A stretch of 64,000 bases of DNA from Amia ocellicauda (Eukaryota), in NCBI RefSeq assembly GCF_036373705.1, contig NC_089863.1, positions 18,851,406 to 18,915,405 of the forward strand. Direction: 5' to 3'. A program made the translations under genes and the position numbers. Shown here one piece after another: positions 8,651 to 53,719 of this stretch (positions are counted from its first letter, which is position 1; every line of letters begins with the position of its first letter). Below the pieces are notes generated by a model that was not told the DNA's origin, searched no databases, and saw only the letters and a program-made list of their open reading frames with translations.

Positions 8651-9230
8651 CCGCCGCTCACTGGCTGGATATAAACGGTCGCTTTTGTTAGCAACTCGGC
8701 CGATACGCAGGATTTGTGTCATTTACGGGTGTTTCTATATTAGTTATAGTGTGCGGCGTGACGTCCACCCTGACGCGCACAGTGAATTATTCAGTCCGTT
8801 CGCTGCCGTTAACTGCTCTATTTTTCAAACTTCAGTCTCTCTCACCCTGTCTCTGCCTGCCAGACCCGGCTCCGCCCCCTGCCTGTCCTCTGGCTCCGCC
8901 CCTGCGTCGGCTCCTCCAATCCGGGCTGCAGTCTGGCCGCCACACGTCCCGCCTCCCTCTCCTCACTGGCTCGCCCCTCCAGCCCGCGCATCGCCATTGG
9001 CTGCTCTGCCTGTCGCCCCGCCCCCTCGCCCGGCCCCATCTCTCCCACTCCCTCTCTCTCTCCCGCTTCACCTCCCATCCCATTCCTCCTCTCCCCCTCT
9101 CTCTCCCTCTATCCCCCCTGTGGGAGTGTCTGGCTTCTAGCGCGCCGCCGCAGATCTCCTTTTCTAGCACAGCCAATCCTCTGGCACCCACCCTGCCCTC
9201 CCACAAATCCACCAACTCTTCCCCTTCCTC

Positions 9231-10316
9231 TTCTGGAAGATCTCCCCACCATATCTTTTCTGGAACCACGGCAGAGAGGTCTGTCCCACTGCTCTTTGGC
9301 TCTAGAACGTCAGGACTCCTCACTTGTCTCTCAGCTGGATCCCATGTTTCCGGGCCTCTTGCCTCCTTGTTCTCTTCTGGAATGCCAGTCTGGAACATCT
9401 CTGGCTGGGGACACGGCCCAGCGTTTTTCTGTTCTAGAACCTCAGAAGCCCCTCTTTCTGCATCTTCCTCCTGCAGTTCCAGAAGCTCACTCCACAACAC
9501 CCCCCACTCCTTATCCCCTGTCTCTGTCTCTCTCCCAGTCCCCGGGCTGGTTTCCACGAGAACTTCGAGATCGTCCCTCCCTCCGTCCTCTCTCTCTTTT
9601 AAAACGTCGCTCTGGCTCTCCTCCTGTCCCCCACTCGGTTCTGGAACCCCCTCCGCTAGTAACCCTGTTCCGTCCTCTATCTGTTCCTGAAGCACTGGTA
9701 TCGCAGGCTGGTCTAGAGCCCCCCCTCCCAGTCCTCCCTCCTCTTGCAGTGTTGGTGTGCTCTTTGACTCCCTCTCTTCTACACTGCCCTCTTCTACCCA
9801 CCCCCCTGTCGCACCCCTACTCCCCGTCTTCTTTTTCTTTTTCTTCTTCTTATTTTCCTTTCCCTTCTCCTCCTCTCTCCCTCCCTCTCTGTCCAATCCC
9901 CACTCCTCTCCCTTTTCCCCTCTCTTCCCCCGCTTCTCCTCCCTCCCCACCCTCGGCCTCCCTCTGTCCCCACCTCCCTGAGCTGTGCTGGGCAGTTCTT
10001 CTAGACCCTTCTGCGATGGCCCCTGCCCTGCCTTGAGGGCCCTGCTTTTGCCCCCTGCCTTCCCCCTCCTCTCTATCTTCTGCCTCCCTTCTTTCTCTCC
10101 GTCTAAACTGAGGTTGCATGTTGTCAATACATCCCTCCCTCCCCCTCTTCCTCTTCTCTCCTGGGGCCACTTCTGTCTCTCTTTCTCTCCTCCCTCCTCC
10201 TCCCCTTCTCTCGCTTGTCCCTCTAGGGAATTCTGGGAAAGCCCCCTTCTCCTTTCTCCTCTTCGTCGTTCTAGAATGTCCAGTAAGGAACGCCCCCTTC
10301 TAGAGCACCTCCTAGT
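9231..10316. repeat. Decayed tandem array (units about 50-70 bp) embedded in CT-rich DNA. It carries at least 7 perfect and at least 5 one-mismatch TTCnnGAA palindromes (heat-shock-element-like)
   Basis: ttctggaa at 9231, 9258, 9375 and 9649; ttctagaa at 9432 and 10269; ttccagaa at 9477. Near-matches occur at 9299, 9389, 10000, 10229 and 10309. Confidence 0.5.
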
Positions 10317-11567
10317 CAGAGGCGAGCTACAGTGAGGGTGCAGGGGAGGGGGCTCCATAGTGAGGAGCAGCCTGAAATCCACCACAAATTCAACCACCCT
10401 ACCCCCTCCTACTCCTCTCTCCTGTCTCCAATCCCTCTTTCTCCCTCTCCCCCTCTCCCCCAGCCCCTGCCTCCCCTGTGCCCACCCCCAGACTGGCAGC
10501 TCTCCTCCCCTGCCCTCTCTCTGTCTCTCTGCCTCTGCGCTCCCCTCCTCCCCATCTCTCTCTCTCTGAGGGGCGTCAATCTGTCTGCCTGTCTCACTCC
10601 CTGGCCCAGCGCTACTGCTGGTCTCTTCTGAAAGACACACAGACACGCACTCAGACAGTAACACACAGTGACACACACAGTCATACACACAGACACTTAG
10701 TGAGGAACACACAGATATACAGACCTATACAATTACCCATTTAGACACACACACACCAGTCAGCCACACAAAGTAAAAGACAAATAGACAGACAGGCACA
10801 CAAACAGACAGACGAACAGATGGAGACACAAAAGCAAAACTCACCACAGTTTCCTACAGGAGGTCTCTGGCCACTCTCTGTCTGTCTCCCCTGAGGCCGG
10901 TCTTCAGTACAATCTTCTATTCTCTGCTCTGTGTCTATGTGTATGAACTGGTCTGTATCTGTGTGTATAGACTGGTCTATGTCTGTGCGTATAGACTGGT
11001 CTATATCTTTGTGTATTGGTTGATCTATGTCTGTGTGTATAGACTGCTCTGTATCTATGTGTACAGACCTCCTCTCTCTCTCCCACCCAGCCTCACTTCC
11101 TCTCTCTCCTCCCTCTGCCTCCCTCCCTCCTTCTTCTGTCACCTCTATCTCTTCTGCCTCTTGTCTCTCTCCTGGTCTCTGGCCGCAAGTCTCTGTCTCT
11201 CTCTCTCCCCCCCCCTCTTCTGTCTCTCTATCAGCTTCTCCTCCAGTCCCTCCCCCCATCCCTGCCCCATCCCCTTCCCTCTCTCCCCCCTTCCTCTCTC
11301 CCTCTAGGGCACCCTTCTCTTCTGCCTCGCCGCTCCTTGCCTTTGCCTCCCTCTCTCCGCAATTTCCCTCTCCCTCGCGCTGTCCTCCTCTCTTCCTCTC
11401 TTTCTCCCCCTCTCTCTTTGTGCCTTCCCCCCTCTCTCTCTCGGCTTCCAGGGCAGACAGCTCAGTGGTAGAGAGTCGGCAGATCTCTCTGGTCTGTCTC
11501 ACGATCTCCTCTACCTGTTTAACACACAGTTAACACACAGGAACAATTACTGACAAGAAACTCCAGT

Positions 11568-12410
11568 GTGGCCCCTATATTATACAATACAATACAATAC
11601 TATACTATACTATACTATACTATAGTCCACACAGCATTGGCTCCAGTCGGGCCCCTATACTATACTATACTATACTATACTACAGTCCACACAGTGCTGG
11701 CTCCAGTCTGGCCCCTATACTATACTATACTCCACACAGCATTGGCTCCATACTGGCCCCTATACTATACTATACTATACTATACTATACTACAGTCCAC
11801 ACAGTGCTGGCTCCAGTCTGGCCCCTATACTATACTATACTATACTATACTATACTATACTATACTACAGTCCACACAGTGCTGGCTCCAGTCTGGCCCC
11901 TATACTATACTATACTCCACACAGCATTGGCTCCATACTGGCCCCTATACTATACTATACTATACTACAGTCCACACAGTGCTGGCTCCAGTCTGGCCCT
12001 ATACTATACTATACTCCACACAGCATTGGCTCCATACTGGCCCCTATACTATACTATACTATACTACAGTCCACACAGTGCTGGCTCCAGTCTGGCCCCT
12101 ATACTATACTATACTATACTATACTATACTATACTATACTACAGTCCACACAGTGCTGGCTCCAGTCTGGCCCCTATACTATACTATACTATACTATACT
12201 ATACATACTATACTATACTATACTATACTACAGTCCACACAGTGCTGGCTCCAGTCTGGCCCCTATACTATACTATACTCCACACAGCATTGGCTCCATA
12301 CTGGCCCCTATACTATACTATACTATACTATACTATACTATACTACAGTCCACACAGCGCTGGCTCCAGTTTCTATGTCTTCTATCTCAATCTCTCAACA
12401 GATGTTAAAA
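11568..12410 (+). repeat. Compound minisatellite: (TATAC)n blocks alternating with an about 40-bp unit agtccacacagtgctggctccagtctggcccc
   Basis: Direct repeats are visible. ORFs 11568-12413 and 11804-12424 are repeat artefacts. The same unit recurs at 30895-30950 (rc) and 57700-57745. Confidence 0.9.
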
Positions 12411-12817
12411 TGACAATGAAATAAAAAATATAATACCTTTTCATTAAAGACAAGATATTAGATTAATACATTTGGTTTTAATAGAGAAGCAGGCAGACAG
12501 ACTATGTAGAGAGCCCTTGACAGACACAGACCATATAGACAGGTAGAGAGATACATAGAGAATCACACACTAAAATACAGATATACAGACACAACAGCCC
12601 AATGCGTGACTATCACTAGGAAGACCCGTGTTATATTAAGCGTGCATTATATAACTACTACTGCAAACAAAACCAGACAGACCGACCCCGAGAGCAGCAG
12701 GTAGCAGTGGACATACCAGAGGCAACGGCAATGGCGTGCTGCCCTCTAGCGGCACAGCCGGTTCCCTGCAGCCACAGTCACTGCCTCTCTCTCTCCCTCC
12801 CTCCTTCCCCGGCTCAC

Positions 12818-12949
12818 CTGCTCCTCGGTGCGCCCCTCCTGCCCCCGCAAGCGGTCGTACAGCCGGACAAACTCCTCGCTGTCCCCGGCCAGCACGCATC
12901 TCCCCAAAAGCGAGGCGTACGTCCTGCAGCTCCCCGCCGCAGCCTCCAT
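12818..12949 (-). CDS. First coding exon of an unidentified minus-strand gene (MEAAAGSCRTYASLLGRCVLAGDSEEFVRLYDRLRGQEGRTEEQ)
   Basis: ATG at 12949-12947, 44 codons, then a cag|GTGAGC donor at 12817. A CpG-rich promoter with two CREs lies immediately upstream. Confidence 0.35.
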
Positions 12950-13138
12950 AGCGCCACTTTGTCCTTTCCCCCACGGAGAAGCGCACAACTCGGTCGCAGT
13001 GGGTCGGGCTGGGCGCACTCGGGCTCGGCTCGGGTTGGTGCGCAGGCCGGGCGGCTCATCGGGTCCTGGGACGGTTAGGGGTTTGAATTTCGGAAAGTAA
13101 ACAAATACAAAAAACTCTGTCCGGCTGTTGGTGGAGCT

Positions 13139-13209
13139 TGACGTCACTGGGAAGCGCCGGTTGCTAAGGACGCCGCAGCGAGGTGTGTGGGCGCTTTCAT
13201 TTGACGTCA
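13139..13209. promoter_or_regulatory. Two perfect palindromic cAMP-response elements (TGACGTCA) 63 bp apart, about 190 and 253 bp upstream of the ATG at 12949
   Basis: tgacgtca at 13139-13146 and 13202-13209, within a CpG-rich segment 12950-13250. Confidence 0.5.
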
Positions 13210-13715
13210 TCGGATAGAAACTGATTAACATCAGCTGAAGTGTGTGCAGCCCTTTTACTTAGTAGTAGTTGGAAGGAGTGGATATTTGAATGTATAGGCT
13301 TTTTAGTGCATTTTATTATCACACATACACACACTACAACCCCTCAGAGTAAGACAGGTGCGACACAACGGGAAACAAGGACAGGGGCCCAGTGTATCGA
13401 AAGGCCTTTATTACAGAGCACAGCTGAGCCTTGTGCCCGAGGAACCCAGGCTTTAAAAATACATCTCTGAACAGCAATAGACAACAGTAGAAAATTATTA
13501 TTATTAATATTATAGTGCAGTTTCTGTACAAAGGTGTGGCGGACAGGGCAGTCCGAGCACATCAGCACGGGGCGTAGAGCAGGCAGGGTCAGGGGTCAGC
13601 ACTGAGGACAGGCCATTTTACACACGGGGGGTGACACACACTCTGACTGACTGACTGACACTGTGTCTGACTGACAGTGACTGAATGAGTGTGTCAGTCG
13701 GTGCGTGTCCGGCTC

Positions 13716-13906
13716 TCAGTCGCTCTCTGCGTCGTCACTGATGATGCCTTTCAGGTTGCTCCAGTCCGTCCCTCTCTTCTGCGCCCCGCCTCCGCCGCCA
13801 CCCTCACTGTCGGAGTCCGAATCGACGCAGCGCTGGTATCGGCCCTTGGCAGGCGACGCCGAGGGCCGGGGGGGCCACGCTGGTGCCGAACTGCGCCTGG
13901 GCCGTC
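13716..13906 (-). CDS. hirip3: HIRA-interacting protein 3, last coding exon (exon 8)
   Basis: ...PAWPPRPSASPAKGRYQRCVDSDSDSEGGGGGGAQKRGTDWSNLKGIISDDAESD* matches the human C-terminus ...TAWNP...LYRRTLDSDEE...DWSHMRGIISSDGESN. The acceptor is ctctctcag and the TGA stop is at 13718-13716. Confidence 0.85.
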
Positions 13907-14008
13907 CTGAGAGAGAGAGAGAGAGAGATTCAGAGTCTCAGAATGGCAGTATAACAGTGTGTCCATGTGTCAGCGTGTGGGGGCGTAACTGTGTCAGAGT
14001 GTCAGTAC

Positions 14009-14107
14009 CCTGCGTCTCGATGATGTTGTTGAGGTCCAGCTCGGCCACTTCCTGCGCTCTCTCCCTCCGCGCCCGTGCCTTCTTACACTTCTCAATGGAG
14101 GGGTTAT
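14009..14107 (-). CDS. hirip3: hirip3 exon 7
   Basis: (D)NPSIEKCKKARARRERAQEVAELDLNNIIETQ(G); ctatag acceptor and g|GTACTG donor. Confidence 0.85.
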
Positions 14108-14286: not shown

Positions 14287-14458
14287 CTTTGACCCCCAGC
14301 TCCTCCAGCGTCCTGCGCAGCACGCCGACCTTGGCCTTGACAGAGTGGCAGTCCTGCAGCAGCTGCTTGTAGTTCTTGCGCACGCCACAGAGGGCGATGT
14401 AGCGCTTCAGCCGCTGCACTGACTTGTGCTCCTCCTCTCGGCCCCCGGAGGACGACGT
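14287..14458 (-). CDS. hirip3: hirip3 exon 6 (conserved C-terminal domain)
   Basis: TSSSGGREEEHKSVQRLKRYIALCGVRKNYKQLLQDCHSVKAKVGVLRRTLEELGVK(G) matches human ...MRLKRYIRACGAHRNYKKLLGSC..ALGMKG. tgtag acceptor and g|GTCAGT donor. Confidence 0.85.
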
Positions 14459-14576: not shown

Positions 14577-14743
14577 TTTCTTCCCCATCTTCCCTTCTTT
14601 CTCGGCGCTGCCCTTCTTTTTCGCACCCCCTCGCTGCGGGCCTGCCTTGCTCTCCTCCTCGTCCAGAGAAGGCAGGGAGGAGGAGTCGGAGTCTGATCCC
14701 TTCTGTTTCTTCTTCTCGTCCTCTTCCACACTTTCCTCCAACT
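14577..14743 (-). CDS. hirip3: hirip3 exon 5 (acidic/Ser-rich)
   Basis: (E)LEESVEEDEKKKQKGSDSDSSSLPSLDEEESKAGPQRGGAKKKGSAEKEGKMGKK; cag acceptor and aaa|GTGAGT donor. Confidence 0.75.
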
Positions 14744-14747
14744 CTGC

Positions 14748-14786
<39 letters not shown>

Positions 14787-14892: not shown

Positions 14893-16245
14893 CATCTCCA
14901 TCGCTCTCCTCCTCTTTTCTCCCTCCTTTCTTCTTCTCTCCCTCTTTCATTCCATTCTGCCCTCCCTCTTCATCGCTCCCCGAGTCCCTCTGTTCTTCAT
15001 CTTCTTCGCTCTCTCTCTCGTGCGGTTTCGTTCCCATCTTCCTGGCTCTCCTCCCTCCCCCCTTTCCCTTGCTCTCGGTCTCTACATTTCCCTTCGTTGT
15101 CTTTTCCATCTGTTTCTCATCACTCTCTTCCTCGCTTTCTGACCCACTCTCTACCGCTACTGCCTTCTGTTTTACTCCCTTTGCCTTCCCTCTGCTATCC
15201 TGCTCTTCCTCGCTCTCAGACTCACTCTCTACCTCTATTGCCTTGTGTTTCGCTCCCTTCTTCATCTGAACTCTCTTCCCCTTCTCTTCCTCGCTCTCAG
15301 ACTCACTCTCTACCTCTATTGCCTTCTGTTTCGCTCCCTTCTTCATCTGTCCTCTCTTCCCCTTCTCTTCCTCGCTCTCCAGCTCACTCTCTACCTCTAT
15401 TGCCTTTTGTTTCGTTCCCTTCTTCATCTGTCCTCTCTTCCCCTTCTCTTCCTCGCTCTCCGGCTCACTCTCTACCTCTATTGCCTTTTGTTTCGCTCCC
15501 TTCTTCATCTGTCCTCTCTTCCCCTTCTCTTCCTCGCTCTCCGGCTCACTCTCTACCTCTATTGCCTTTTGTTTCGTTCCCTTCTTCATCTGTCCTCTCT
15601 TCCCCTTCTCTTCCTCGCTCTCCGGCTCACTCTCTACCTCTATTGCCTTTTGTTTCGTTCCCTTCTTCATCTGTCCTCTCTTCCCCTTCTCTTCCTCGCT
15701 CTCCGGCTCACTCTCTACCTCTATTGCCTTGTGTTTTGCTCCCTTTGCCTTCCCTCTGCTATCCTGCTCTTCCTCGCTCTCAGACTCACTCTCTACCTCT
15801 ATTGCCTTGTATTTTGCTCCTCTCTTCCCCTTCTCTTCCTCGCTCTCCGGCTCACTCTCTACCTCTATTGCCTTGTGTTTTGCTCCCTTCTTCATCTGTC
15901 CTCTCTTCCCCTTCTCTTCCTCGCTCTCCGGCTCACTCTCTACCTCTATTGCCTTGTTTTTTGCTCCCTTCTTCATCTGTCCTCTCTTCCCCTTCTCTTC
16001 CTCGCTCTCCGGCTCACTCTCTACCTCTATTGCCTTGTTTTTTGCTCCCTTCTTCATCTGTCCTCTCTTCCCCTTCTCTTCCTCGCTCTCCGGCTCACTC
16101 TCTACCTCTATTGCCTTGTTTTTTGCTCCCTTCTTCATCTGTCCTCTCTTCCCCTTCTCTTCCTCGCTCTCCGGCTCACTCTCTACCTCTATTGGCTTCT
16201 GTTGCTTCCCCCTCCCTGCACGCTCAATGCCAGAGTCCGGGGAAT
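14893..16245 (-). CDS. hirip3: hirip3 exon 4: a 1.35-kb exon containing about 13 near-identical 78-bp (26-aa) tandem coding repeats AIEVESEPESEEEKGKRGQMKKGAKNK
   Basis: Open minus frame throughout. ttctcag acceptor (16248-16246) and gat g|GTGAGT donor (14892). Exon phases are consistent with exons 3 and 5. Confidence 0.8.
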
Positions 16246-16724
16246 CTGAGAAGAGAACAAACAACCGACGAGCAAAATGATTAAGACAGATGTAAGTGCA
16301 AACAAAGAGAAAACTCCGGACGCAGATAGAGAGACCAGGAGAGACGCGCGGATATGGGGGGGATCACCGTCAAAAAGATGAATATGCCTAAAAAGAATGT
16401 GTACTTCTATTTGTGATTTGTACCTGCATTTACTAGAACAAATCTGAAAATTACGGGTACAAATCGCATTCTTGTGAGTTACAGCGTTAAATCACTGTCT
16501 AACACACGTCACAAAGGTCCCAGGCTGGGACTGTGGGCCAATCGATGAGGACGGGACTGTGCACGGCTCAGCTACGGAAACCCAGCGGTGTGACATGCGA
16601 ACGCTCGAGAGAAATGCCGATGCCCGTGCCGTTTTTGGTGCATTTTAATAAATCGACGCCATTCTGGCCAAACTGCCGATTCTATATGCTAATTGTAAAA
16701 CCAAAGTACAGACCGAACAGTCCA

Positions 16725-16990
16725 GTCTTCCAAAATATGCATAGCGAGTTTTTCAGATCAGCAGGGACACACGGACCCGGGGACACAAATGGAAATTGGG
16801 CTTCAAGGCATTCGAGACAGAAAACAGGAGACACTTCTTCACACAGAGAGGCGTCACAATCTGAACAAACTCCCCAGCGATGTGTTAGAAGCTGAAAGTT
16901 TGGGAACATTTAAAAATAGACGGGATAGGATCCTTGCATCACTTAGATATTAATGAACACCAGACGAGCACGATGGGTCGAATGGCCTCC
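16725..16990 (+). repeat. SINE-like interspersed repeat (about 260 bp), copy A, in hirip3 intron 3
   Basis: About 85% identical to 55420-55700 (+) and to the reverse complement of 19735-19965. The shared 3' end is ...aatggcctcctctcgtttgtaaactt. Confidence 0.6.
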
Positions 16991-18005: not shown

Positions 18006-18144
18006 CTGGATCAGAGGGAGCCCGTCGAGACTTCTTCCTGCACTCCTCCTCTCCCTCGCTCTCCCCTCTCTTGCGCTTGGGGGCGCGGGCGGAGGACGAG
18101 ACCAGTTTAATGAGCGGCTCGTCGTCATCGCTGCTGTCGCTGCC
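18006..18144 (-). CDS. hirip3: hirip3 exon 3
   Basis: GSDSSDDDEPLIKLVSSSARAPKRKRGESEGEEECRKKSRRAPSDP(g) matches human ..KRPPTPCSDPERKRFRFNSESESGSE; ctttcag acceptor. Confidence 0.8.
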
Positions 18145-18260: not shown

Positions 18261-18381
18261 CTGCATGTTCAGCAGCTCCTCCTCCACGATTCGCTTCAGC
18301 AGCTGCCGCTCGTCTTTGCTCAGCGAGTCAGAGCCACAGTGGCACAGGTAGCGCTCCCGGATTATGGCCTGAGTGAGCTTG
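18261..18381 (-). CDS. hirip3: hirip3 exon 2
   Basis: (S)KLTQAIIRERYLCHCGSDSLSKDERQLLKRIVEEELLNMQ matches human LSTLTHSIVRRRYLAHSG..EEKQALKRLVEEELLKMQ; cccgcag acceptor and cag|GTGGGC donor. Confidence 0.85.
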
Positions 18382-19277
18382 CTGCGGGAACAATGACAAT
18401 CACAACAATCTCAACAACGCATGTGGAACTATTATATGAACTCTTATCATAAACACTGCTAGCAGGATCGGGATTCAAATGACTATTAGCAAATTATTAT
18501 TTTGAATCATAGTAGTAGCAGAAGTTAGTAGCAGTAGTGCAGATACTAGTGGTAGACGATTAGTAGTAGTAGTAGCAGTGCTATAGCAAGTACTTCAGTG
18601 GAATGGCGTCACTGAAACTACATTCTGAAACGGGCCTCCTGCGTGGAGAAAGCTGATCACAGAGGTGCTCTACCGAGGATAGAGAGACGCAGGGAACAAG
18701 CCGCCTATAGTCGCAATATAAGCTGCAGTCGCACAGCAGTAGTAAAATCCGTTCCAGTATCTTAGCGGAGTAGTAACCAACTAAAAACCCCTACTAAGAG
18801 CAGTAGTAGTAGCAGAAATGTCGCTCCGATATAAGTAGCAGGTTCCACAGTAGTAGTAGTAGTAGTAGTAGTAGTAAGGTAGTGTCAGGGTATATAGTAG
18901 TAGCAGTAACTATACCCCCAACAGAAGCACTACAAACAATCCAGGGACAACATGATTGTATTAGTGGCAGTGTATGCAGCCTGTTAGGAGCAGTAGTAGT
19001 AGTAGTAGAGTAGTGGCAGGAGAAGATGTAGCTGCAGATGCACGCAGAGCTGTAACAGCAGGCTGAGTAGCAGTATTAGCAGTGCATGCAAGGACCTACT
19101 ACTACTCATCACACACCTCCCCATCACAGGGTCGATGCGACATGCAACATACAAGACACGAGTCACTTTCTCCTCCTCAGGAAATACACAGTGCAGCAGC
19201 TACACGGACGCCCGGCCTCGCTGCGGGTGTAGGCTGGGCTGGAGGCGCTCATGGCGGTGTGCGGCTCGTCCTGCTAC

Positions 19278-19342
19278 CTGAGGTCCGGACTCCGCCGCAG
19301 CTCCCGGGACACGAAGCGCCGGATCCGGGTCTCCGCCGACAT
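19278..19342 (-). CDS. hirip3: hirip3 exon 1 (start codon)
   Basis: ATG 19342-19340: MSAETRIRRFVSRELRRSPDL(ag) matches human ..FTRSFFRGRPDLS; ag|GTAGCA donor. Confidence 0.75.
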
Positions 19343-19734: not shown

Positions 19735-19965
19735 CCCATTTGATAACTAAGTGATCCAAGGATCCTATCCAGTCTATTGTTAAATGTTCCCATGTTCTAC
19801 CACATCGCTGGGGAGTTTGTTCAGATTGTGACGCCTCTCTGTGTGAAGAAGTGTCTCCTGCTTTCTGTCTTGAATGCCTTGAAGCCCAATTTCCATTTGT
19901 GTCCCCGGGTGCGTGTGTCCCTGCTGATCTGGAAAAGCTCCTCTGGTTTGATGTGGTCGATGCCC
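19735..19965 (-). repeat. SINE-like interspersed repeat, copy C, in the hirip3-kctd13 intergenic region
   Basis: Reverse-complement alignment to copies A and B. Confidence 0.55.
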
Positions 19966-21477: not shown

Positions 21478-21729
21478 TCAGTCCTTATACACAGTCTGCT
21501 GCCCGTGTCCTCTCTCGTCCGTCATGATGTGTCTGCGGACGTGGATCCGCCGCACCCGCCGGTCCCCGCCCCCGGCCCCGCCCCCTTCCTCCTCCGACTG
21601 CAGGCCGCCCGGCGACGAGCCGGCGCCCGAGTCCAGCATGGCCGAGGACACGCCCCCGGGGCCACGCCCGCTCTCGTAGATCAGGATGTTCAGGGTCTCC
21701 TCGAAGATACGAGCCTCCGGGAACTCCAC
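21478..21729 (-). CDS. kctd13: KCTD13 (BACURD1) exon 6, C-terminal, with stop
   Basis: VEFPEARIFEETLNILIYESGRGPGG...DRRVRRIHVRRHIMTDERGHGQQTVYKD* matches human KCTD13 ...RRVRRIHVRRHITHDERPHGQQIVFKD; ctctctcag acceptor. Confidence 0.9.
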   Translation of the reverse strand: MEFPEARIFEETLNILIYESGRGPGGVSSAMLDSGAGSSPGGLQSEEEGGGAGGGDRRVRRIHVRRHIMTDERGHGQQTVYKD

Positions 21730-21799
21730 CTGAGAGAGAGAGGGATTAATACGATACAAAAACACTGACCGACAGAGAGAGGGAGAGGCCGAGACTCAC

Positions 21800-21995
21800 C
21801 TTGGTCTGCTTCTTCTCGGTGGCGTAGACGATGGAGGTGCAGCACACCTCGGCAATCTTGCGCCCCTCCCCGTAGAAGGACCAGCAGCAGATCTCGTCCC
21901 CCAGGACGTCACGCGCGAACAGCACCCGCCCGTTGAAGCGCAGGCCCAGCTTGTCGAACAGCTCGATGTTCTTCAGCAGGTTGTCGTCCGAGTTA
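21800..21995 (-). CDS. kctd13: kctd13 exon 5
   Basis: [66 protein letters not shown]; aag|GTGAGT donor. Confidence 0.9.
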
Positions 21996-22128
21996 CTGAG
22001 AGAGAGAGAGAGGGTGGTGGGGGGTTAATATGGGATAGATGCAGTGACTGACTGATAGCTACGAAGCAGCGGGACAGAGAGGGACAGGGGGAAGGACCGG
22101 AGACACAGACGACACAGACGCACCGTAC

Positions 22129-22181
22129 CTGGTGTAGGAGTATTTGTTGTTGCCTCGGTTGTGTTGCAGCTTCACCACAGG
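22129..22181 (-). CDS. kctd13: kctd13 exon 4
   Basis: PVVKLQHNRGNNKYSYT(ag); ttttcag acceptor and ag|GTACGG donor. Confidence 0.85.
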
Positions 22182-22867
22182 CTGAAAAGCAGAACACACA
22201 CAAACCAGTCAATCACAGTGGCCTGCCCCCCCGTCTCCTCTTCTTGCTCGCTCAGACATTTTGTATGCTGCGAACTACTGTATCCCACAGCGTGTTATTG
22301 AAAAAAAGAAAAAAAGCTACCATCTTCTACAAGGCAAAGGCATAAAGCGACGGGATACAAGAGTTGTGTATTTATTTGTATTTTTTAATCAAATCGGCAC
22401 TGTTGTACACATTGGCTGCTTGAATACAACTGTTTATTTCTACCGGTGAAAGTGTCTGGATTGCTCTAAACGTGCTCATCTGCCCCGTCTCTTTCGCCGA
22501 CTCGAAGTCGACTCTCTGGCACCGGTTGATGACATCATGAATGTGGCGTTTCATTTTAAAAGCATGATATCATCTACAGGTATGTTCAGCCTGCATCTTG
22601 GTAGAGGACCATTAGATATTACAATTGGTCCCCCCCCCCAGTCCATGCTGAGCAGGTCACAATTGGCATCCATGTTGTTTGCAATGTTCATGGGGAGTCT
22701 CGCTAGCTGCGAGAGATACAGTCTGCCGTCCTCTACAGGCGTGTTCAGATTTGGTCTCCTTGGAGGAACAGGAAGTCCAGCTGGAAATTGTATCCCACCC
22801 ACCCACTGGGCTGGGCTGGGCTGGGCTGAGCAGAGGATCATGGGAAATGCTGCAGCCGGTCTCTCAC

Positions 22868-22957
22868 CTTCTTGCAGGAGGCAATCATCCTCTGCTCCTC
22901 CTTGGGCGAGGTGATCATGGGGATCCGGCAGACGGCCTCGTAGCCCTCCGCCCGCTT
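22868..22957 (-). CDS. kctd13: kctd13 exon 3
   Basis: KRAEGYEAVCRIPMITSPKEEQRMIASCKK; ctctgcag acceptor and aag|GTGAGA donor. Confidence 0.85.
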
Positions 22958-23142
22958 CTGCAGAGAGAGAGAGAGTTAGGCAGGATAGACACTGGCTGAC
23001 TGGACACTGCAGTACACTGATACTGCACTGAGACGGAAAGAGTGACAGAGGTGGGCAGGGGGAGAGTGTGGAAGTGTGCGTCTCAGAGTGTGTGTCATTG
23101 TGTGTAACAGCGATGTGCGTCTCAGTGTGTGTGTGTCTTTAC

Positions 23143-23312
23143 CTGCAGGGCAGTGAGGCAGTGAGACACTAGGCCCTGCAGCCTGTAGTATCGCGCCTCG
23201 CTCAGGATCTCCTCCAGCTCTCGGGGGCAGTCGGGAAGTGGCACCGCTCCGTCCCGCAGAAAGTTCAGAACCGAGCCGAAGTGCCGTCCGCTGCGGTCCA
23301 ACACCAGCCACC
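23143..23312 (-). CDS. kctd13: kctd13 exon 2 (BTB domain, second half)
   Basis: GWLVLDRSGRHFGSVLNFLRDGAVPLPDCPRELEEILSEARYYRLQGLVSHCLTALQ. The DRSGRHFG motif is KCTD13-type (KCTD10/TNFAIP1 have DRCGKHFG). Confidence 0.9.
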
Positions 23313-23409
23313 CTGAGAGGAAGAGAGAGGGGGACACGAGTCAGTCAGTCAGTCAGTCAGTCAGTCGGGGCGTCTCCGTACTCCTCAGCATTTCTCCTCC
23401 GCCTCTCAC

Positions 23410-23653
23410 CCTCCGAGTCGATGGTGACCTCGGTGTGTCCAGTGCACATGCTCCTCAGCAGGCTGTCGCTCTTGCTCAGGGTCTGGACGGTGGTGTAGTG
23501 CAGAGAGCCCCCCACGTTCAGCTTCACGTACTTGCTGCCCGCCAGGCCCGTCCCCTTCTCCTCCCGGCCCGGCCCGGCTGACGCCGGAAGCAGGTCTGAC
23601 GCCAACGCCGCCCCCCCGCCCTGGCCCGGGCAGCAGGAAGCCTCGGCCGACAT
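23410..23653 (-). CDS. kctd13: kctd13 exon 1 (start codon; BTB domain, first half)
   Basis: ATG 23653-23651: MSAEAS...GSKYVKLNVGGSLHYTTVQTLSKSDSLLRSMCTGHTEVTIDSE(g). Both the MSAEAS start and GGSLHYTT are KCTD13-specific. Confidence 0.9.
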
Positions 23654-24092: not shown

Positions 24093-24775
24093 CACAGTAA
24101 GAGAATCAATCGGAGAGGAAGGCGGGGTTGATGAGGAAGACCGCTCATGTTCAGCCGGTCCTTATTTCCTTATTCATTATCTCCTTATTACTCCCGACAG
24201 GCCACTCACAGGGTGCACACAACAGCAGGGCTGTACTCACCACGCCGACGCAGCTGGAGCTATCAATGGATCTGGCGAATTAAATATGGATAGTTAAAGT
24301 GCCACATAAATAAATAAAAAATCGAATTGTTTCTAATTTCTAGAAAATACTTCACAAAATCATCGCTCGCTCTCTTTCCCTTTCACTCCCGTTCTTTTAT
24401 TCTCGCTCTATTTCTTTCTCTCTATCTCTCCCCTGTCTACCATAAAGCTGCCATAATAATAATGGCGTTTCCTCATATCTTAGGGAAACGGCCGCTGTTT
24501 GCGGCCCCGGGTTGGCTGAACTTCACGTCAATCAGCGACACACTCCTCACGCTCATGCGTCTCATTGGCCGGAGGGCTGTCGCGTCAACTGCATCCCTGT
24601 GCTGTGATTGGTCAGTGTGCCGGAGTGTCGTCCCCACAGGGCTACGTCACCCTGAGCAAAGTGGACGGAGAGCTTGCAAGGGGCCGCCTACCGCCGGATT
24701 GGTCGTTACGTCATAAGTGAGGTGCTGTATCTACCGCAATATATACAATATCTCAACATCAAAACACATATCGGT

Positions 24776-25322
24776 CAGCAGTGTTAGTGCTGTAGTGTCC
24801 AGTCAGTCAGTGTTAATGGTCTGTAGTGTCCAGTCAGTCAGTGTTAATGTGCTGCAGTGTCCAGTCAGTCAGTGTTAATGTACTGTAGTGTCCAGTCAGT
24901 CAGTGTTAATGTACTGTAGTGTCCAGTCAGTCAGTCAGTCAGTGTTAATCTACTGTAGTGTCCAGTCAGTCAGTGTTAATGTACTGTAGTGTCCAGTCAG
25001 TCAGTCAGTCAGTGTTAATGTACTGTAGTGTCCAGTCAGTCAGTGTTAATGTGCTGTAGTGTCCAGTCAGTCAGTGTTAATGTGCTGTAGTGTGCAGTCA
25101 GTCAGTGTTAATGGTCTGTAGTGTCCAGTCAGTCAGTGTTAATGTGCTGTAGTGTCCAGTAAGTCAGTGTTAATGTACTGTAGTGTCCAGTCAGTCAGTG
25201 TTAATGTGCTGTAGTGTCCAGTCAGTCAGTCAGTGTTAATGCGCTGTATTGTCCAGTCACTCAGTCAGACAGTCAGTGTTAATGGTCTGTAGTGTCCAGT
25301 CAGTCAGTGTTAATGTGCTGTA
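24776..25322. repeat. Satellite, about 18 copies of an about 31-bp unit tgtccagtcagtcagtgttaatgtactgtag
   Basis: Direct tandem repeats, with an (ACTG)n core. Confidence 0.9.
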
Positions 25323-40416: not shown

Positions 40417-41010
40417 GTGTCAAATAAAAGAAGTGGTGAAAATGTACCGTACTATATTACATCGCTCTTCTCTTTCCTGCCCTCCTTCTCCCTCTCCTCT
40501 TCCCTCTCTTCTTTCACCTCCTTCCCCCTCCCCTTTCCTTTCCCCTCCTTCTCTCTTGCCTTTCCCCTTTCTCTCTACCCTCTCCCCTCCCATTTCTTTC
40601 CTCTCCTTTCCTCTTTCCCCTCCTTCTCTCCCCCTTTCTCTCTCCTTCCCTTTCCCCTCCTTCTCTCCCCCTTCCCTTCTCTCTACCCTCCCCTCTCCCC
40701 CTTTCTCTCCTCTCCTCTTTCCCCTTCTTCTCTACCCTCTCCCCTCTCCCCTTTTCTCTCCTCTTTCCCCTCCTTCTCTCTACCCACTCCCCTTCCCCCT
40801 CTCTCCTCTCCTTTCCCCTCCTTCTCTACCCACTTCCCCTCTCTTCTCTTTCCCCTCCTTTTCCTCCTTTCCCCTCCTTCTCTCTCTCCTCTCCTCTTTC
40901 CCCTCATTTTATCCTCTTTCCCCTCCTCCTCTCCCCTCTTCCCCTCTCCTCTTTCCCCTCCTTCACTCCCCTCTCCCCTCTCCCCTCTCTCTCTCTCTCT
41001 CTCTCTCAGT
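40417..41010 (+). repeat. About 600-bp polypyrimidine (CT-rich) tract ending in a ctctctcag motif immediately 5' of the asphd1 ATG
   Basis: Low-complexity CT. ORFs 40417-41016 and 40433-41620 are artefacts. Probably 5'UTR or promoter sequence. Confidence 0.8.
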
Positions 41011-42306: not shown

Positions 42307-42339
42307 GTGAGGGGGTGGGCGAGAAGAGAGAGGAAGGGA

Positions 42340-42850
42340 CTGATACATTGACTGGCACACTGACTGACTGACACACTGACTGACTCACACACTGACTGAC
42401 ACACGGACTGACTGACTGACTAACTGACACACTGACTGACACACGGACTGACTGACTGACTCACTAACTGACTGACACACTGACTGACTGACACACTGAC
42501 TGAAACATGGACTGACACACTGACTGACACATGTACTGACTGACTGACTGGCTCACTAACTGACTGACTGACACACGGACTGACTGACTGACTAACTGAC
42601 TGACTGATAGACACACTGACTGACCTGACTGACACACTGACTGACTCACTAACTGACTGACACACTGACTGACCTGACTGACACACTGACTGACTCACTA
42701 ACTGACTGACACACTGACTGACTCACTAACTGACTGACACACTGACTGACTCACTAACTGACTGACACACGGACTGACTGACTGACACAATGACTGACAC
42801 ACGGTCTGACTGACACATGGACTAACTGACACACTGACTGACAGACTAAC
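42340..42850. repeat. Minisatellite in asphd1 intron 3, about 48-bp units built from (GACT)n/cacac: tgactgactcactaactgactgacacac
   Basis: Direct repeats. ORFs 42420-42698 and 42464-42649 (minus) are artefacts. Confidence 0.9.
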
Positions 42851-45565: not shown

Positions 45566-47545
45566 ACAGTGGATTGCATAAGTACTCTTTCACATTTTGT
45601 TGTTACAATCTGAAATGAAAACTGATTTAATTGTGATTTTCTACCTTTGATTACCTTTCATTAACAACCTGGAGGTGCAAAATTGTGAAAAACTGAAAAC
45701 TGGAATGTGAAATGTGTTAGTTGAATAACTATTCACCCACGAGTCAATACTTGGTAGAACCACCTTTGGCAGTTATACAGCCTTGAGTCTTTTTGGATAA
45801 GTCTCTACCTGGTTCCTGTAATTGTTGCCCATTCTTCTTGGCAGAATTGCTCAAGCTCTCTCAAGTCCGAAGGGCACAATTGGTTAAGAGCAACTTTCAA
45901 GTCTTGCCACTGATTCTTAGCTGGATTGAGGTCTGGGCTTTGACTGGGCCATTCTAGAACACTAGTTTTTAACACCTTCAGACCTTGTGTCCATTACAAT
46001 CCACCTCATTGAAGAGAGGCCTGGCAGGGCTCCAAACTACATGGCAAAGTAAAGTAACTGTAGTGCAGTCTGATGATCTCACACTACATCAACACTGTAT
46101 AGTAAATATAGTGCAGTCTAATGACCTCACACTGTAGAGTAACTATAGTGCAGTCTAATGTTCTCACACTGTATAGTGACTATAGTGCAGTCTGATGACC
46201 TCACACTGTAGAGTGACTATAGTGCAGTCTAATGACCTCACACTGTAGAGTGACTGTAGTGCAGTCTGATGACCTCACACTGTACAGTGACTATAGTGCA
46301 GTCTGATGACTTCACACTGTAGAGTGACTATAGTGCAGTCTGATGACTTCACACTGTAGAGTGACTATAGTGCAGTCTGATGACCTCACACTGTACAGTG
46401 ACTATAGTGCAGTCTGATGACCTCACACTGTACAGTAACTATAGTGCAGTCTGATGACCTCACACTGCAGAGTAACTATAGTGCAGTCTAATGACCTCAC
46501 ACTGCAGAGTAACTATAATGCAGTCTGATGACCTCACACTGTACAGTGACTATAGTGCAGTCTGATGACCTCACACTGTACAGTGACTATAGTGCAGTCT
46601 GATGACCTCACACTGTACAGTGACTATAGTGCAGTCTGATGACCTCACACTGTACAGTGACTATAGTGCAGTCTGATGGCCTCACACTGTAGAGTGACTA
46701 TAGTGCAGTCTGATGACCTCACACTGTACAGTGACTATAGTGCAGTCTGATGGCCTCACACTGTAGAGTGACTATAGTGCAGTCTGATGACCTCACACTG
46801 TAGAGTGACTATAGTGCAGTCTGATGACCTCACACTGTATAGTGACTATAGTGCAGTCTGATAGCCTCACACTGTAGAGTGACTATAGTGCAGTCTGATG
46901 ACCTCACACTGTAGAGTGACTATAGTGCAGTCTGATGACCTCACACTGTAGAGTCACTATAGTGCAGTCTGATGACCTCACACTGTACAGTGACTATAGT
47001 GCACTCTAATGACCTCACACTGTAGAGTAACTATAGTGCAGTCTAATGTTCTCACACTGTACAGTGACTATAGTGCAGTCTGATGACCTCACACTGTAGA
47101 GTGACTATAGTGCAGTCGAATGACCTCACACTGTAGAGTAACTATAGTGCACTCTAATGACCTCACACTGTAGAGTAACTATAGTGCAGTCTAATGTTCT
47201 CACACTGTACAGTGACTATAGTGCAGTCTGATGACCTCACACTGTAGTGACTATAGTGCAGTACATAGATATAGTGTAAATATGATGCTATCATATGATG
47301 TTGGTATTGGTATTTTAAAACTGTTTGGACCCACTTGTTGCAAACCGCATTTTATTTAAGTGTGTCATAGCAAAGGGGCTGAATACTTATGCAATCAAGA
47401 CTTTTCCATTTTTTTTATTTGCAGTTAAGAAAAGATGTAATACTCTGTAGATCAGTGACTGAAAATCCCAATTAAATCAATTTTAATCCAACACTAAACA
47501 ATGTCCAAAAGTACCTGGGGGGTGAATAATTATACAATCCATTGT
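45566..47545. mobile_element. Tc1-like IR-DR element (long-TIR type) whose interior is replaced by a satellite array
   Basis: Left arm 45566-46055 starts acagtggattgcataagtactc. Right arm 47270-47545 ends with the reverse complement tacaatggattgtataatta and has an inner DR gattgcataagtattc at about 47385. There is no transposase ORF. Confidence 0.6.
46060..47265. repeat. Satellite, about 30 copies of a 40-bp unit gtgcagtctgatgacctcacactgtacagtgactata
   Basis: Near-perfect direct tandem repeats. Confidence 0.9.
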
Positions 47546-52429: not shown

Positions 52430-53035
52430 CTGTGTCATATTGTATAGTACACTACACTACATCACACCACACTGTACTGTACTGTACTATACTTCACTGC
52501 TATACTACACTGTACTGTACTAAACTGTGCTATACTACACTAAACTACACTACACTGTGCTATACTACACTGTACTGTACTAAACTGTGCTATACTACAC
52601 TAAACTACACTACACTGTGCTATACTACACTGTACTGTACTACACTGTTATACTACACTAAACTACACTACACTGTGCTATACTACACTGTACTGTACTA
52701 CACTGTGCTATATTACACTGTACTACACTGTGCTATACTACATTATGCTATACTACACTGTGCTAAACTACACTGTACTGTACTACACTGTGCTATACTA
52801 CAGAAAACTACACTACACTGTTATACTACACTCTACTGTACTACACTGCTATATTACATTGTACTACACTGTGCTATACTACACTGTGCTATACTACAGT
52901 AAACTACACTACACTGTGCTATACTACAGTAAACTACACTACACTGTGCTATACTACACTGCTATATTACAGTGTTCTACACTTAATTGCACCACACTGC
53001 ACTGCGCTACACTACACACACTGTACTACACTACA
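52430..53035. repeat. Low-complexity (CTACA/CTGTA)-type microsatellite block
   Basis: ORFs 52432-52902 and 52730-53299 are repeat artefacts. Confidence 0.7.
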
Positions 53036-53719
53036 CTGTACAGCAGGACTGCACATATGGCCCACCAGCATTTGAAGAGAAGCACTGAAATGCTTCAGAG
53101 GGTTCTGTATTGGCATTGTGTTGCTGTTGTGATTGACATTAGCTCCACCCTGTGCAGGGGTGTGTCTGCAGTCCATGTGGTTGCGGTGCGGGATGCTCTA
53201 ATACCACACGGTGCTGGGCCTGTATGGACTGTCTGGTGCTTGGCAGGGCCATGGGAGTGTCTGGGCTGGATAGGAGTAGCACTAGAGCAGAGCTTTTAAT
53301 TGATGGTACCAAACCCAAACTATGACTCAATAGCACACGGTCCGTAACATGCTGAATACATACCCTGGATAAAGGCGTCTGCCAATAAATAAATAATAAT
53401 AATACTCAGATTGATAACTGTACACTGGTGATTGACATCTAGGCTGTAGATTTGAAAGAGAGAGAGAGAGGCAGTGTGCATGATTACAATTTCTTCCTTG
53501 TCTCCTTTAGGAGGAAGAGCTCCCTCCAATCTCGGCACTCGTTCACTCGCCCCCCCTTTCACACTCCCTCCATCTGGAGGAGCCCGAGGACAGACGGACA
53601 GACGGACAGACAAAAAGAAGGACAGACACGCAGGGAGACACCCACACGCACACACACAGACACCTCTCTCCTCTCTTCCTCGCCTCGTTCTCTCCATCCC
53701 TCACTCTGCTGCCGTCGCC

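What the first reader, a model, noticed from the sequence alone, without database searches (positions are those of the whole stretch)
14893..16245. hirip3 carries a near-perfect 78-bp coding minisatellite (about 13 copies of a 26-aa acidic Ser unit)
Exon 4 of the hirip3 orthologue contains tandem 78-bp units encoding AIEVESEPESEEEKGKRGQMKKGAKNK. Several adjacent copies are identical at the nucleotide level, which indicates recent expansion or homogenisation. The inferred protein is about 768 aa, against 556 aa for human HIRIP3, by my hand-assembled exon model. Each unit carries SEPESEEE, which matches the CK2 consensus (S/T-x-x-D/E), and HIRIP3 is a known CK2 substrate and histone/HIRA-binding acidic protein. 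The array therefore multiplies candidate phospho-acceptor and histone-binding acidic patches, and it is likely to vary in length between individuals. The antisense strand of the same array produces three long artefactual plus-strand ORFs (15097-16284, 15245-16249, 15729-16280).
Basis: partly seen in the sequence, partly recalled or inferred. Interest (0 to 1): 0.75.

Follow-up and report, generated by a model that had tools for sequence, protein, structure and literature searches.

The report
Young 81-bp coding repeat in hirip3
A fish copy of the histone-chaperone gene hirip3 carries a recently expanded in-frame tandem repeat (13 copies of a 27-amino-acid acidic and basic unit) that makes up 45% of the predicted protein, a real but ordinary kind of change in a disordered, fast-evolving protein segment.

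Summary
The array is real. TRF finds 13.6 head-to-tail copies at 15124-16203. I resolve 13 clear units at 16195-15164 on the minus strand, with 94% mean pairwise identity. Units 2=3 and 7=8=10 are identical. One unit is 66 bp and two are 78 bp, so all are multiples of 3.

The gene is a hirip3 orthologue (E = 8e-88, conserved ends, kctd13 upstream).

The array sits in the hypervariable, half-charged central segment. It lengthens that segment to 463 aa, against 92-303 aa in orthologues, without changing its composition. It adds 29 CK2-consensus serines.

No orthologue or other protein searched has this array. Small independent duplications do recur in the same region, including an older 81-bp x3.5 repeat in a bichir.

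Two claims fail or remain open. "Histone-binding patches" is not supported, because human HIRIP3 1-370 does not bind H2A-H2B. Expression in full, length polymorphism and assembly accuracy could not be tested.

Verdict: a lineage-specific coding minisatellite, a new member of a known kind, of modest interest.

The parts
19278..19342 (-). hirip3 coding exon 1 (ATG at 19342; MSAETRIRRFVSRELRRSPDL)
   Evidence: tblastn with orthologue N-termini. The donor CAG|GTAGCA leaves phase 2, which matches exon 2.
18261..18381 (-). hirip3 exon 2
   Evidence: AG/GT sites and in-frame joining. Aligns to the conserved N-terminal region.
18006..18144 (-). hirip3 exon 3
   Evidence: AG/GT sites. Conserved DDEPL...KRKR.
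14893..16245 (-). hirip3 exon 4 (1353 nt, residues about 109-560). It starts with the invariant SPDSGIER motif and holds the array.
   Evidence: Its donor is the strongest in the gene, and there are 0 stops in the coding frame.
15164..16195 (-). Tandem array of 13 units, residues 126-469, 44.8% of the protein
15872..16195 (-). Block A: units 1-4 (81 bp each, ...GAKNK/GAKHK type), 98-100% identical to one another
15806..15871 (-). Unit 5, 66 bp (in-frame 15-nt deletion, lacks QMKKG)
15728..15805 (-). Unit 6, 78-bp variant (SESESEEEQDSRGKAKG), 97% identical to unit 13
15323..15727 (-). Block B: units 7-11 (81 bp each, ...GTKQK/GAKQK type). Units 7, 8 and 10 are identical.
15164..15322 (-). Units 12 (81 bp) and 13 (78-bp variant), the most diverged full units
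15083..15163 (-). Degenerate 14th unit (AVAVESGSESEEESDEKQMEKTTKGN), the likely older or seed copy
   Evidence: The first 40 nt match the consensus at 34/40, by direct count.
14577..14743 (-). hirip3 exon 5 (conserved SDSDSSSLPSLDEEE). Its acceptor is preceded by a (TC)15 tract.
14287..14458 (-). hirip3 exon 6 (RLKRYIALCGVRKNYKQLL..., extended CHZ region)
14009..14107 (-). hirip3 exon 7 (PSIEKCKK...EVAELDLNNIIETQ, CHZ motif)
   Evidence: Pfam CHZ at residues 688-711, E = 0.013, below the cut-off. Invariant columns.
13716..13906 (-). hirip3 exon 8, with the stop codon (…WSNLKGIISDDAESD*)
15097..16284 (+). Antisense artefactual ORFs (15097-16284, 15245-16249, 15729-16280)
21610..23653 (-). kctd13-like gene upstream (synteny marker)
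   Evidence: tblastn with kctd13-hirip3 fusion models. BTB_2 Pfam match.

Best explanation
This is a lineage-specific, recently expanded coding minisatellite in the large central exon of hirip3.

DNA level (inferred from the anatomy): an ancestral-type module of about 27 aa, an acidic serine cluster followed by a lysine-rich stretch, was duplicated by replication slippage or unequal exchange. It then amplified in at least two local bursts, block A (units 1-4) and block B (units 7-10/11). The older, more diverged units lie at the 3' end (units 12-14). A two-unit segment may also have been duplicated, since unit 6 resembles unit 13.

The period (81) and all length variants (66, 78) are multiples of 3, so the reading frame is kept and the array is tolerated.

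Protein level (inferred): the array is translated as 13 disordered modules, each with 7 acidic and 7 basic residues. They roughly double the length of the charged spacer between the conserved N-terminal region and the C-terminal extended CHZ histone-binding region. They leave its composition unchanged. They add about 29 CK2-consensus serines to a protein whose human orthologue binds and is phosphorylated by CK2.

The most likely status is nearly neutral length variation of a disordered region, with a possible quantitative effect on CK2 phosphate load.
For: -
- The gene model has canonical sites and gives 768 aa.
- Orthology rests on E = 8e-88, 61% identity to gar at both ends, and kctd13 upstream.
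- The array begins 12 residues after the invariant SPDSGIER motif, where the hypervariable region starts.
- The coding frame has 0 stops, against 41 and 23 in the other sense frames. All unit lengths are divisible by 3.
- The central segment is 463 aa, against 92-303 aa in 22 orthologues. The charged fraction is 0.52 with or without the array, and kappa is 0.36 against a median of 0.27.
- AF2 gives pLDDT 41.7 and no secondary structure.
- The array holds 29 CK2 motifs.
- None of 120 orthologues has more than about 2 copies of any internal repeat.
- The array-only search in 5.8 billion proteins found nothing. The exon 4 search in 1.84 billion representatives found only unrelated periodic proteins.
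- Small duplications recur independently in the same region in salmonids, shad and bichirs. One of them is an 81-bp x3.5 repeat in Erpetoichthys.
- A profile of the unit scores 8-10 bits in orthologues, against 3.6 and 5.7 bits in controls.
- The window holds at least 6 other minisatellites, so the local genome is prone to them.
- Human HIRIP3 associates with CK2, and its N-terminal and central regions have no assigned role.
Against: - No transcript, read or population data could be consulted. Translation of the whole exon, the true copy number and polymorphism are therefore unverified.
- Each unit contains a donor-like AGA|GTGAG(C/T), scoring 5.1-6.7 bits against 1.5-10.4 for the real donors. 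It is in the same phase as the authentic donor, so shorter in-frame isoforms are possible.
- Differences between units are mostly non-synonymous. This gives no positive evidence of protein-level constraint, though the copies are too young for that to mean much.
- An open frame is weak evidence in purine-rich DNA.
Confidence: 0.78

Rival explanations
1. The copy number is an assembly artefact. Runs of identical 81-bp units were expanded or collapsed, so the real allele has a different number of units, although an array does exist.
For: Units 2=3 and 7=8=10 are identical, giving up to 243 bp of almost perfect periodicity. No reads are available. The window is rich in repeats.
Against: The array is only about 1.05 kb and any long read would span it. 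Variant units (5, 6, 9, 11, 12, 13) are interspersed and give unique anchors. All units stay in frame.
Confidence: 0.1
2. The array is wholly or partly removed from the mRNA. This could happen through the repeated in-phase cryptic donors paired with the exon 5 acceptor, or as an exitron. The main protein would then be much shorter than 768 aa.
For: There are 13-14 cryptic donors AGA|GTGAGY, all in phase with the real donor. A one-unit gap can be written GAG|GTAGAG...ATAGAG|, that is GT...AG (sequence). In other fishes, predicted isoforms from one genome differ by about one repeat copy. In Erpetoichthys the difference is a 69-nt GT...AG gap inside the purine-rich repeat.
Against: No acceptor-like site exists inside the array. 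The pyrimidine fraction upstream of any AG is at most 0.33, against 0.56-1.0 at the real acceptors. The authentic donor is the strongest in the gene (10.4 bits). The exon carries 83 GAR-type enhancer hexamers. The Erpetoichthys gap also lacks a pyrimidine tract and has GTGAGGAAGA microhomology, so it may be an alignment, RT or allelic artefact rather than splicing.
Confidence: 0.12
3. The expansion is adaptive. Selection favoured more CK2 phospho-acceptor and basic modules, turning the spacer into a multivalent, Nopp140-like phospho-regulated scaffold that changes chaperone behaviour.
For: The array holds 29 strict CK2 motifs. Acidic and basic blocks alternate regularly, with kappa 0.36 against 0.14 for shuffles. 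Human HIRIP3 is in a stable complex with CK2. In Nopp140, about 80 CK2 serines in 10 alternating repeats control localisation.
Against: Composition is unchanged from the ancestral region. Orthologues vary threefold in the length of this region with no known consequence. A Drosophila Nopp140 repeat-length polymorphism has no visible phenotype. There is no signal of selection in the substitutions between units. The genome region makes minisatellites freely.
Confidence: 0.1

Closest known systems
HIRIP3 orthologues of other ray-finned fishes, especially the Erpetoichthys/Polypterus internal repeat
   Same: Same gene, same large central exon and same hypervariable charged region. Erpetoichthys has a tandem repeat of the same period (81 bp, 27 aa: acidic Ser cluster plus Lys-rich stretch) in that exon.
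   Different: The bichir repeat has 3.5 copies at 79% match, so it is older. It shares only 9/27 residues with this unit. Here there are 13 copies at 94% identity, forming 45% of the protein. No other orthologue of the 120 examined has more than about 2 copies.
Nopp140 (NOLC1) / treacle central domains, and the Drosophila Nopp140 96-bp repeat length polymorphism
   Same: Alternating acidic-serine and lysine-rich low-complexity repeats, which are CK2 targets. In Drosophila they are encoded in one large exon, with a copy-number polymorphism of a 96-bp unit.
   Different: There is no homology and no LisH or SRP40 domains. Nopp140 repeats are old and degenerate, while this array is young and nearly perfect. 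CK2 phosphorylation of this array is untested.
Classical coding minisatellites (PRDM9 zinc-finger array, 84-bp units; mucin and involucrin VNTRs)
   Same: In-frame tandem units of tens of bp, with near-identical neighbouring copies, block structure and divergence that is polar (increasing toward one end of the array). High copy-number mutability is expected (PRDM9 described as a coding minisatellite in PMC3890296; the rest is general knowledge).
   Different: PRDM9 units are folded domains under positive selection at the DNA-contact residues. Here the unit is a disordered charged module with no sign of selection.
Tandem repeats as drivers of length variation in disordered regions (yeast; protein tandem-repeat census)
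   Same: Repeat copy-number change concentrated in disordered regions (bioRxiv 10.1101/339663; PMC7230257).
   Different: Those are general surveys. Neither describes hirip3.

Membership tests
HIRIP3 (HIRA-interacting protein 3) orthologue | End-to-end sequence similarity to annotated HIRIP3 proteins | tested here: met
   All top hits are fish HIRIP3, the best with E = 8e-88. Identity to gar is 61% in both the N-terminal 125 aa and the C-terminal 209 aa. Invariant SPDSGI, SSLPSL and C-terminal columns are present.
HIRIP3 (HIRA-interacting protein 3) orthologue | CHZ histone-chaperone motif near the C-terminus | tested here: inconclusive
   Pfam PF09649 scores E = 0.013 and 15.4 bits, below the 23.3-bit cut-off. 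The motif residues (E..A.LD..NII) are invariant in the alignment with orthologues.
HIRIP3 (HIRA-interacting protein 3) orthologue | Conserved gene neighbourhood | tested here: met
   kctd13-like exons lie directly upstream on the same strand. kctd13-hirip3 read-through models exist in other fishes (P0031, P0117).
HIRIP3 (HIRA-interacting protein 3) orthologue | Binds H2A-H2B and is bound and phosphorylated by CK2 | not testable with these tools
   Known for the human protein only (PMC10854748).
Coding minisatellite / VNTR | Head-to-tail units of about 10-100 bp with high identity | tested here: met
   81 bp x 13.6 copies, score 1579. Mean pairwise identity is 94%.
Coding minisatellite / VNTR | Unit length divisible by 3 and open in the gene's frame, inside an exon | tested here: met
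   Unit lengths are 81, 66 and 78 bp. There are 0 stops in frame. The exon is bounded by canonical AG/GT sites and joins in frame.
Coding minisatellite / VNTR | Present in the mature mRNA and protein | not testable with these tools
   No transcript data. The indirect splice-signal analysis favours inclusion.
Coding minisatellite / VNTR | Copy number varies between individuals | not testable with these tools
   Only a single sequence is available. No second copy was found in the protein or metagenome collections.
Nopp140/treacle-type phosphoprotein | Alternating acidic-serine and basic repeats | tested here: met
   Each unit has 7 acidic, 7 basic and 2-3 Ser residues in two blocks. Kappa is 0.36, against 0.14 for shuffles.
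Nopp140/treacle-type phosphoprotein | Homology to NOLC1/TCOF1 (LisH, SRP40 C-terminal domain) | tested here: not met
   Pfam finds only a weak CHZ match. This is an analogy of architecture, not membership.

The most novel reading that the evidence does not exclude
The array is not neutral padding. It would be a selected, copy-number-variable module that turns HIRIP3 into a Nopp140-like, CK2-hyperphosphorylated multivalent scaffold. Adding 29 phospho-sites and 13 basic patches would tune H2A-H2B handling, CK2 recruitment or condensate partitioning in this lineage. The 27-aa acidic and basic module would be an ancient building block of vertebrate HIRIP3 that has been amplified repeatedly (81-bp repeats here and in bichirs).
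Probability: 0.08. Interest if true: 0.5.

Novelty: new member of a known kind. Interest (0 to 1): 0.28.

Why it matters
If the array is real in the animal, nearly half of a conserved histone H2A-H2B chaperone consists of a very young repeat. That makes it a natural experiment on how much length and phospho-site number the unassigned central region of HIRIP3 can absorb. The array is also a likely hypervariable marker.

It matters for annotation as well. Allelic copy-number differences in this array can be written as GT...AG gaps, so RNA-seq pipelines may report spurious isoforms, as seems to happen in other fish hirip3 models. It does not open a new mechanism or family.

Tried and rejected
- Array-only protein search in the 5.8-billion-protein collection: no hit at E <= 0.001.
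- Exon 4 against 1.84 billion representatives: 7 hits, all unrelated proteins with their own periodic acidic and basic repeats at 38% identity or less. They are analogues, not homologues.
- Exact 36-nt unit core in metagenome contigs: 0 matches.
The species and its annotation could therefore not be identified. O. nerka and Alosa isoforms were not on record.
- Semi-global identity of putative units 0, 15 and 16 to the consensus: no better than shuffled purine-rich controls (80% against 80 +/- 4%). I claim only unit 14 as a degenerate copy.
- The first hmmsearch run failed on incompatible options and was repeated correctly.
- Homology between the bichir unit and this unit: 9/27 identical residues and about 60% nucleotide identity in low-complexity sequence. 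This is suggestive only, and I do not claim shared descent.
- Reading the plus-strand ORFs as genes: rejected.
- Pfam on the neighbouring ORFs 8835-10712 and 12749-13231: nothing found.

Full report
**1. Observation**

Tandem Repeats Finder reports one strong array at 15124-16203: period 81, 13.6 copies, 89% matches, score 1579. On the minus strand I resolved 13 clear units from 16195 to 15164.
- Ten units are 81 bp.
- Unit 5 is 66 bp, an in-frame loss of QMKKG.
- Units 6 and 13 are 78 bp and share the variant SESESEEEQDSRGKAKG.

A 36-nt unit core occurs 13 times with at most 3 mismatches. It occurs 0 times in 100 shuffles and nowhere else in the window. Mean pairwise identity is 94%. Units 2=3 and 7=8=10 are identical.

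The copy number, the identical neighbours, the exon limits and the three antisense ORFs are all correct.

**2. Structure of the array**

- Two homogeneous blocks stand out: units 1-4 (ending GAKNK/GAKHK, 98-100% identical) and units 7-11 (ending GTKQK/GAKQK, 96-100% identical). The blocks differ from each other by 4-5%.
- Units 6 and 13 are 97% identical to each other but only 85-91% identical to the majority type. This suggests that a segment including the variant unit was duplicated before each block expanded.
- Divergence grows toward the 3' end (units 12 and 13). The array ends in a degenerate unit at 15163-15083, whose first 40 nt match the consensus at 34/40.
- Further "units" beyond that are no better than shuffled controls, and I do not claim them.
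- Among the ten 81-bp units only 10 positions vary, and most changes are non-synonymous. Several are CpG transitions, such as CCG to CTG and GCG/GCA.
- This is the pattern of a young minisatellite that grew by local bursts, rather than by array-wide homogenisation.

**3. The gene**

- Eight minus-strand exons, all with AG/GT boundaries, join in frame into a 2307-nt coding sequence of 768 aa. They are 19342-19278, 18381-18261, 18144-18006, 16245-14893, 14743-14577, 14458-14287, 14107-14009 and 13906-13716.
- A version of the protein with the repeat collapsed hits only HIRA-interacting protein 3 of ray-finned fishes. The best hit is Lepisosteus, E = 8e-88.
- Identity to gar is 61% in both the N-terminal 125 aa and the C-terminal 209 aa. 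No closer relative is present, so the species or its near kin are not in the protein collection.
- kctd13-like exons with a BTB domain lie directly upstream on the same strand. This matches the kctd13-hirip3 read-through models of other fishes.
- Pfam CHZ matches residues 688-711 only weakly (E = 0.013, below the cut-off). The motif columns are nevertheless invariant in the alignment.
- I conclude that this is the hirip3 orthologue and that the array lies in its fourth coding exon.

**4. Where the array sits**

The alignment with ten orthologues shows three parts:
- a conserved N-terminal region ending in the invariant SPDSGIER motif, which opens exon 4;
- a central segment that cannot be aligned and differs greatly in length;
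- the conserved SDSDSSSLPSLDEEE motif and the C-terminal extended CHZ region.

The array begins 12 residues after SPDSGIER.

The central segment is 463 aa here, against 92-303 aa (median 212) in the 22 orthologues where both landmarks could be found. Its charged fraction is 0.52 with or without the array. The orthologue median is 0.50.

Charge segregation (kappa) is 0.36 for the array. Composition-matched shuffles give 0.14, and orthologues range from 0.13 to 0.35.

A single-sequence AlphaFold2 model of exon 4 has mean pLDDT 41.7 and no helices or strands. This is weak evidence, but it agrees with a unit holding only 3 hydrophobic residues in 27.

The array therefore adds more of the same disordered, half-charged sequence, about 45% of the protein.

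**5. Is the array shared?**

- None of the 120 orthologues has more than about 2 copies of any internal repeat.
- The array alone finds nothing in the 5.8-billion-protein collection.
- Exon 4 against 1.84 billion representatives finds seven unrelated proteins with their own periodic acidic and basic repeats, at 38% identity or less.
- The unit core is absent from metagenome contigs.

Small independent duplications do recur in the same region: 42 aa x2 in Oncorhynchus, 23 aa x2 in Alosa and 26-27 aa in bichirs. In the Erpetoichthys locus (L001) the orthologous exon holds an 81-bp repeat, x3.5 at 79% match. That is the same period as here, but only 9/27 residues are shared.

A profile of the unit scores 8-10 bits on single sites in orthologues, for example EVESEEEKDPRAKK and SSSESEEEKNQRAKIKNG. 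Shuffled and reversed controls reach 3.6 and 5.7 bits.

I read this as amplification of an ancestral-type module in a region that tolerates such events repeatedly. Shared descent of the two 81-bp repeats is not shown.

The window also contains at least six other minisatellites, so the local background is repeat-prone.

**6. Is it coding and retained in the mRNA?**

This is inference only.

In favour of retention:
- The gene's frame has 0 stops in 1353 nt, against 41 and 23 in the other sense frames.
- All length variants are multiples of 3.
- The authentic donor ATG|GTGAGT is the strongest in the gene.
- The exon is 84% purine and carries 83 GAR-type enhancer hexamers.
- No AG inside the array has a pyrimidine-rich upstream tract (at most 0.33, against 0.56-1.0 at the real acceptors).

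Against:
- Every unit carries AGA|GTGAG(C/T), scoring 5.1-6.7 bits, in the same phase as the real donor. Shortened in-frame isoforms joining to exon 5 are therefore possible.

A practical warning follows from the orthologues. Predicted isoforms from one genome differ by about one repeat copy in three other fishes. In Erpetoichthys the difference is a 69-nt gap, CCG|GTGAGG...GAAGAG|, inside the purine-rich repeat. It has no pyrimidine tract and has GTGAGGAAGA microhomology. It could be an exitron, an allelic deletion or an RT or alignment artefact.

In this window a one-unit deletion can likewise be written GAG|GTAGAG...ATAGAG|.

**7. Function**

- Each unit has two strict CK2-type serines (S-E-x-E). 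The SESESEEE variants have three.
- The array holds 29 such sites and the protein 48. The orthologue median is 21 and the maximum 42.
- Human HIRIP3 is a 556-aa, seven-exon protein. It is stably associated with CK2 and is phosphorylated by it (PMC10854748, citing Assrir et al. 2007).
- In the same study, residues 1-370 showed no H2A-H2B binding, while 371-556 and 403-527 bound fully. The roles of the Glu-rich and poly-Ser regions are described there as unknown.
"Multiplies candidate CK2 sites" holds at the motif level.
- The nearest architectural analogue is Nopp140. It has ten alternating acidic-Ser and Lys-rich repeats with about 80 CK2 serines that control localisation (PMC8336889).
- In Drosophila Nopp140, a 96-bp repeat in one large exon is polymorphic (2 or 3 copies) with no visible phenotype (bioRxiv 10.1101/513978).
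- There is no homology to Nopp140.

**8. Antisense ORFs**

The three plus-strand ORFs are real as open frames. They follow trivially from the pyrimidine-rich antisense strand, which has 0, 1 and 1 stops in its three frames. They have no Pfam match.

**9. Verdict**

This is a real, young, lineage-specific coding minisatellite: 81 bp x 13 in the hypervariable disordered centre of hirip3. It most likely arose by slippage or unequal exchange and is tolerated because it keeps both the frame and the composition.

It is a new member of a well-known kind, coding tandem repeats in disordered regions. It is worth recording as a probable length-polymorphic locus and as an annotation hazard. It is not a new mechanism. 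Expression in full, true copy number and polymorphism remain untested.

Noticed in passing
window 11597-12370; 24774-25322; 40486-41007; 42338-42847; 46092-47262; 52481-53041: The window is unusually rich in minisatellites. The strongest is a 37-bp unit x31.7 at 93% match (46092-47262, score 1964), stronger than the hirip3 array. I did not check whether any of these are coding.
   Followed up: partly
L001:18997-19263 (Erpetoichthys calabaricus hirip3, GCA_900747795.4 LR536443.2): The orthologous large exon of the reedfish holds a tandem repeat with the same 81-bp period (x3.5, 79% match), encoding VRKKGKPEIKKADSxSDSEEEEEKKxP. Annotated isoform X2 equals X1 minus a 69-nt GT...AG gap (19050-19118) that has no pyrimidine tract. 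This may be an exitron, an allelic deletion or an artefact.
   Followed up: partly
orthologue proteins P0022/P0018 (Oncorhynchus nerka), P0108/P0113 (Alosa alosa): Predicted isoforms of one species differ by exactly one copy of that species' own internal duplication (42 aa and 23 aa). Repeat-unit-sized 'alternative splicing' looks like a recurrent feature or artefact of fish hirip3 models.
   Followed up: partly
window 21610-23653 (-): A kctd13-like gene (BTB_2 domain, 60-95% identity to fish models) lies directly upstream of hirip3 on the same strand.
   Followed up: partly
window 16789-16953 (+) and 19780-19896 (-): Two copies, in opposite orientation, of a transposon-like ORF fragment (MEIGLQGI[RQ]DRKQETLLHTERRHNLNKLPSDV). 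One is in hirip3 intron 3 and one is upstream of exon 1.
   Followed up: no
window 8832-10712 (-): A 626-aa open frame of E/G/R-rich low complexity lies downstream of hirip3. It has no Pfam match. It is probably a composition artefact or part of another charged protein.
   Followed up: partly
window 14753-14782 and 13907-13935: (GA)15 on the plus strand, that is (TC)n on the gene strand, forms the polypyrimidine tract of the exon 5 acceptor. Exon 8 has a similar (TC)n tract. Microsatellites are serving as splice signals here.
   Followed up: no
window 18500-19000 (-), hirip3 intron 1: Several (ACT)n / 'actactact' trinucleotide runs are interspersed through intron 1.
   Followed up: no
protein P0121 (1218 aa, from the representative library): An unrelated transposase-like protein carries about 12 copies of a 25-27-aa unit, SDYESEPSTKTGTRGRKKKLVDIQPQ. 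It has the same acidic-Ser then basic layout as the hirip3 unit (E = 1e-23, 27% identity). This looks like convergent architecture.
   Followed up: no
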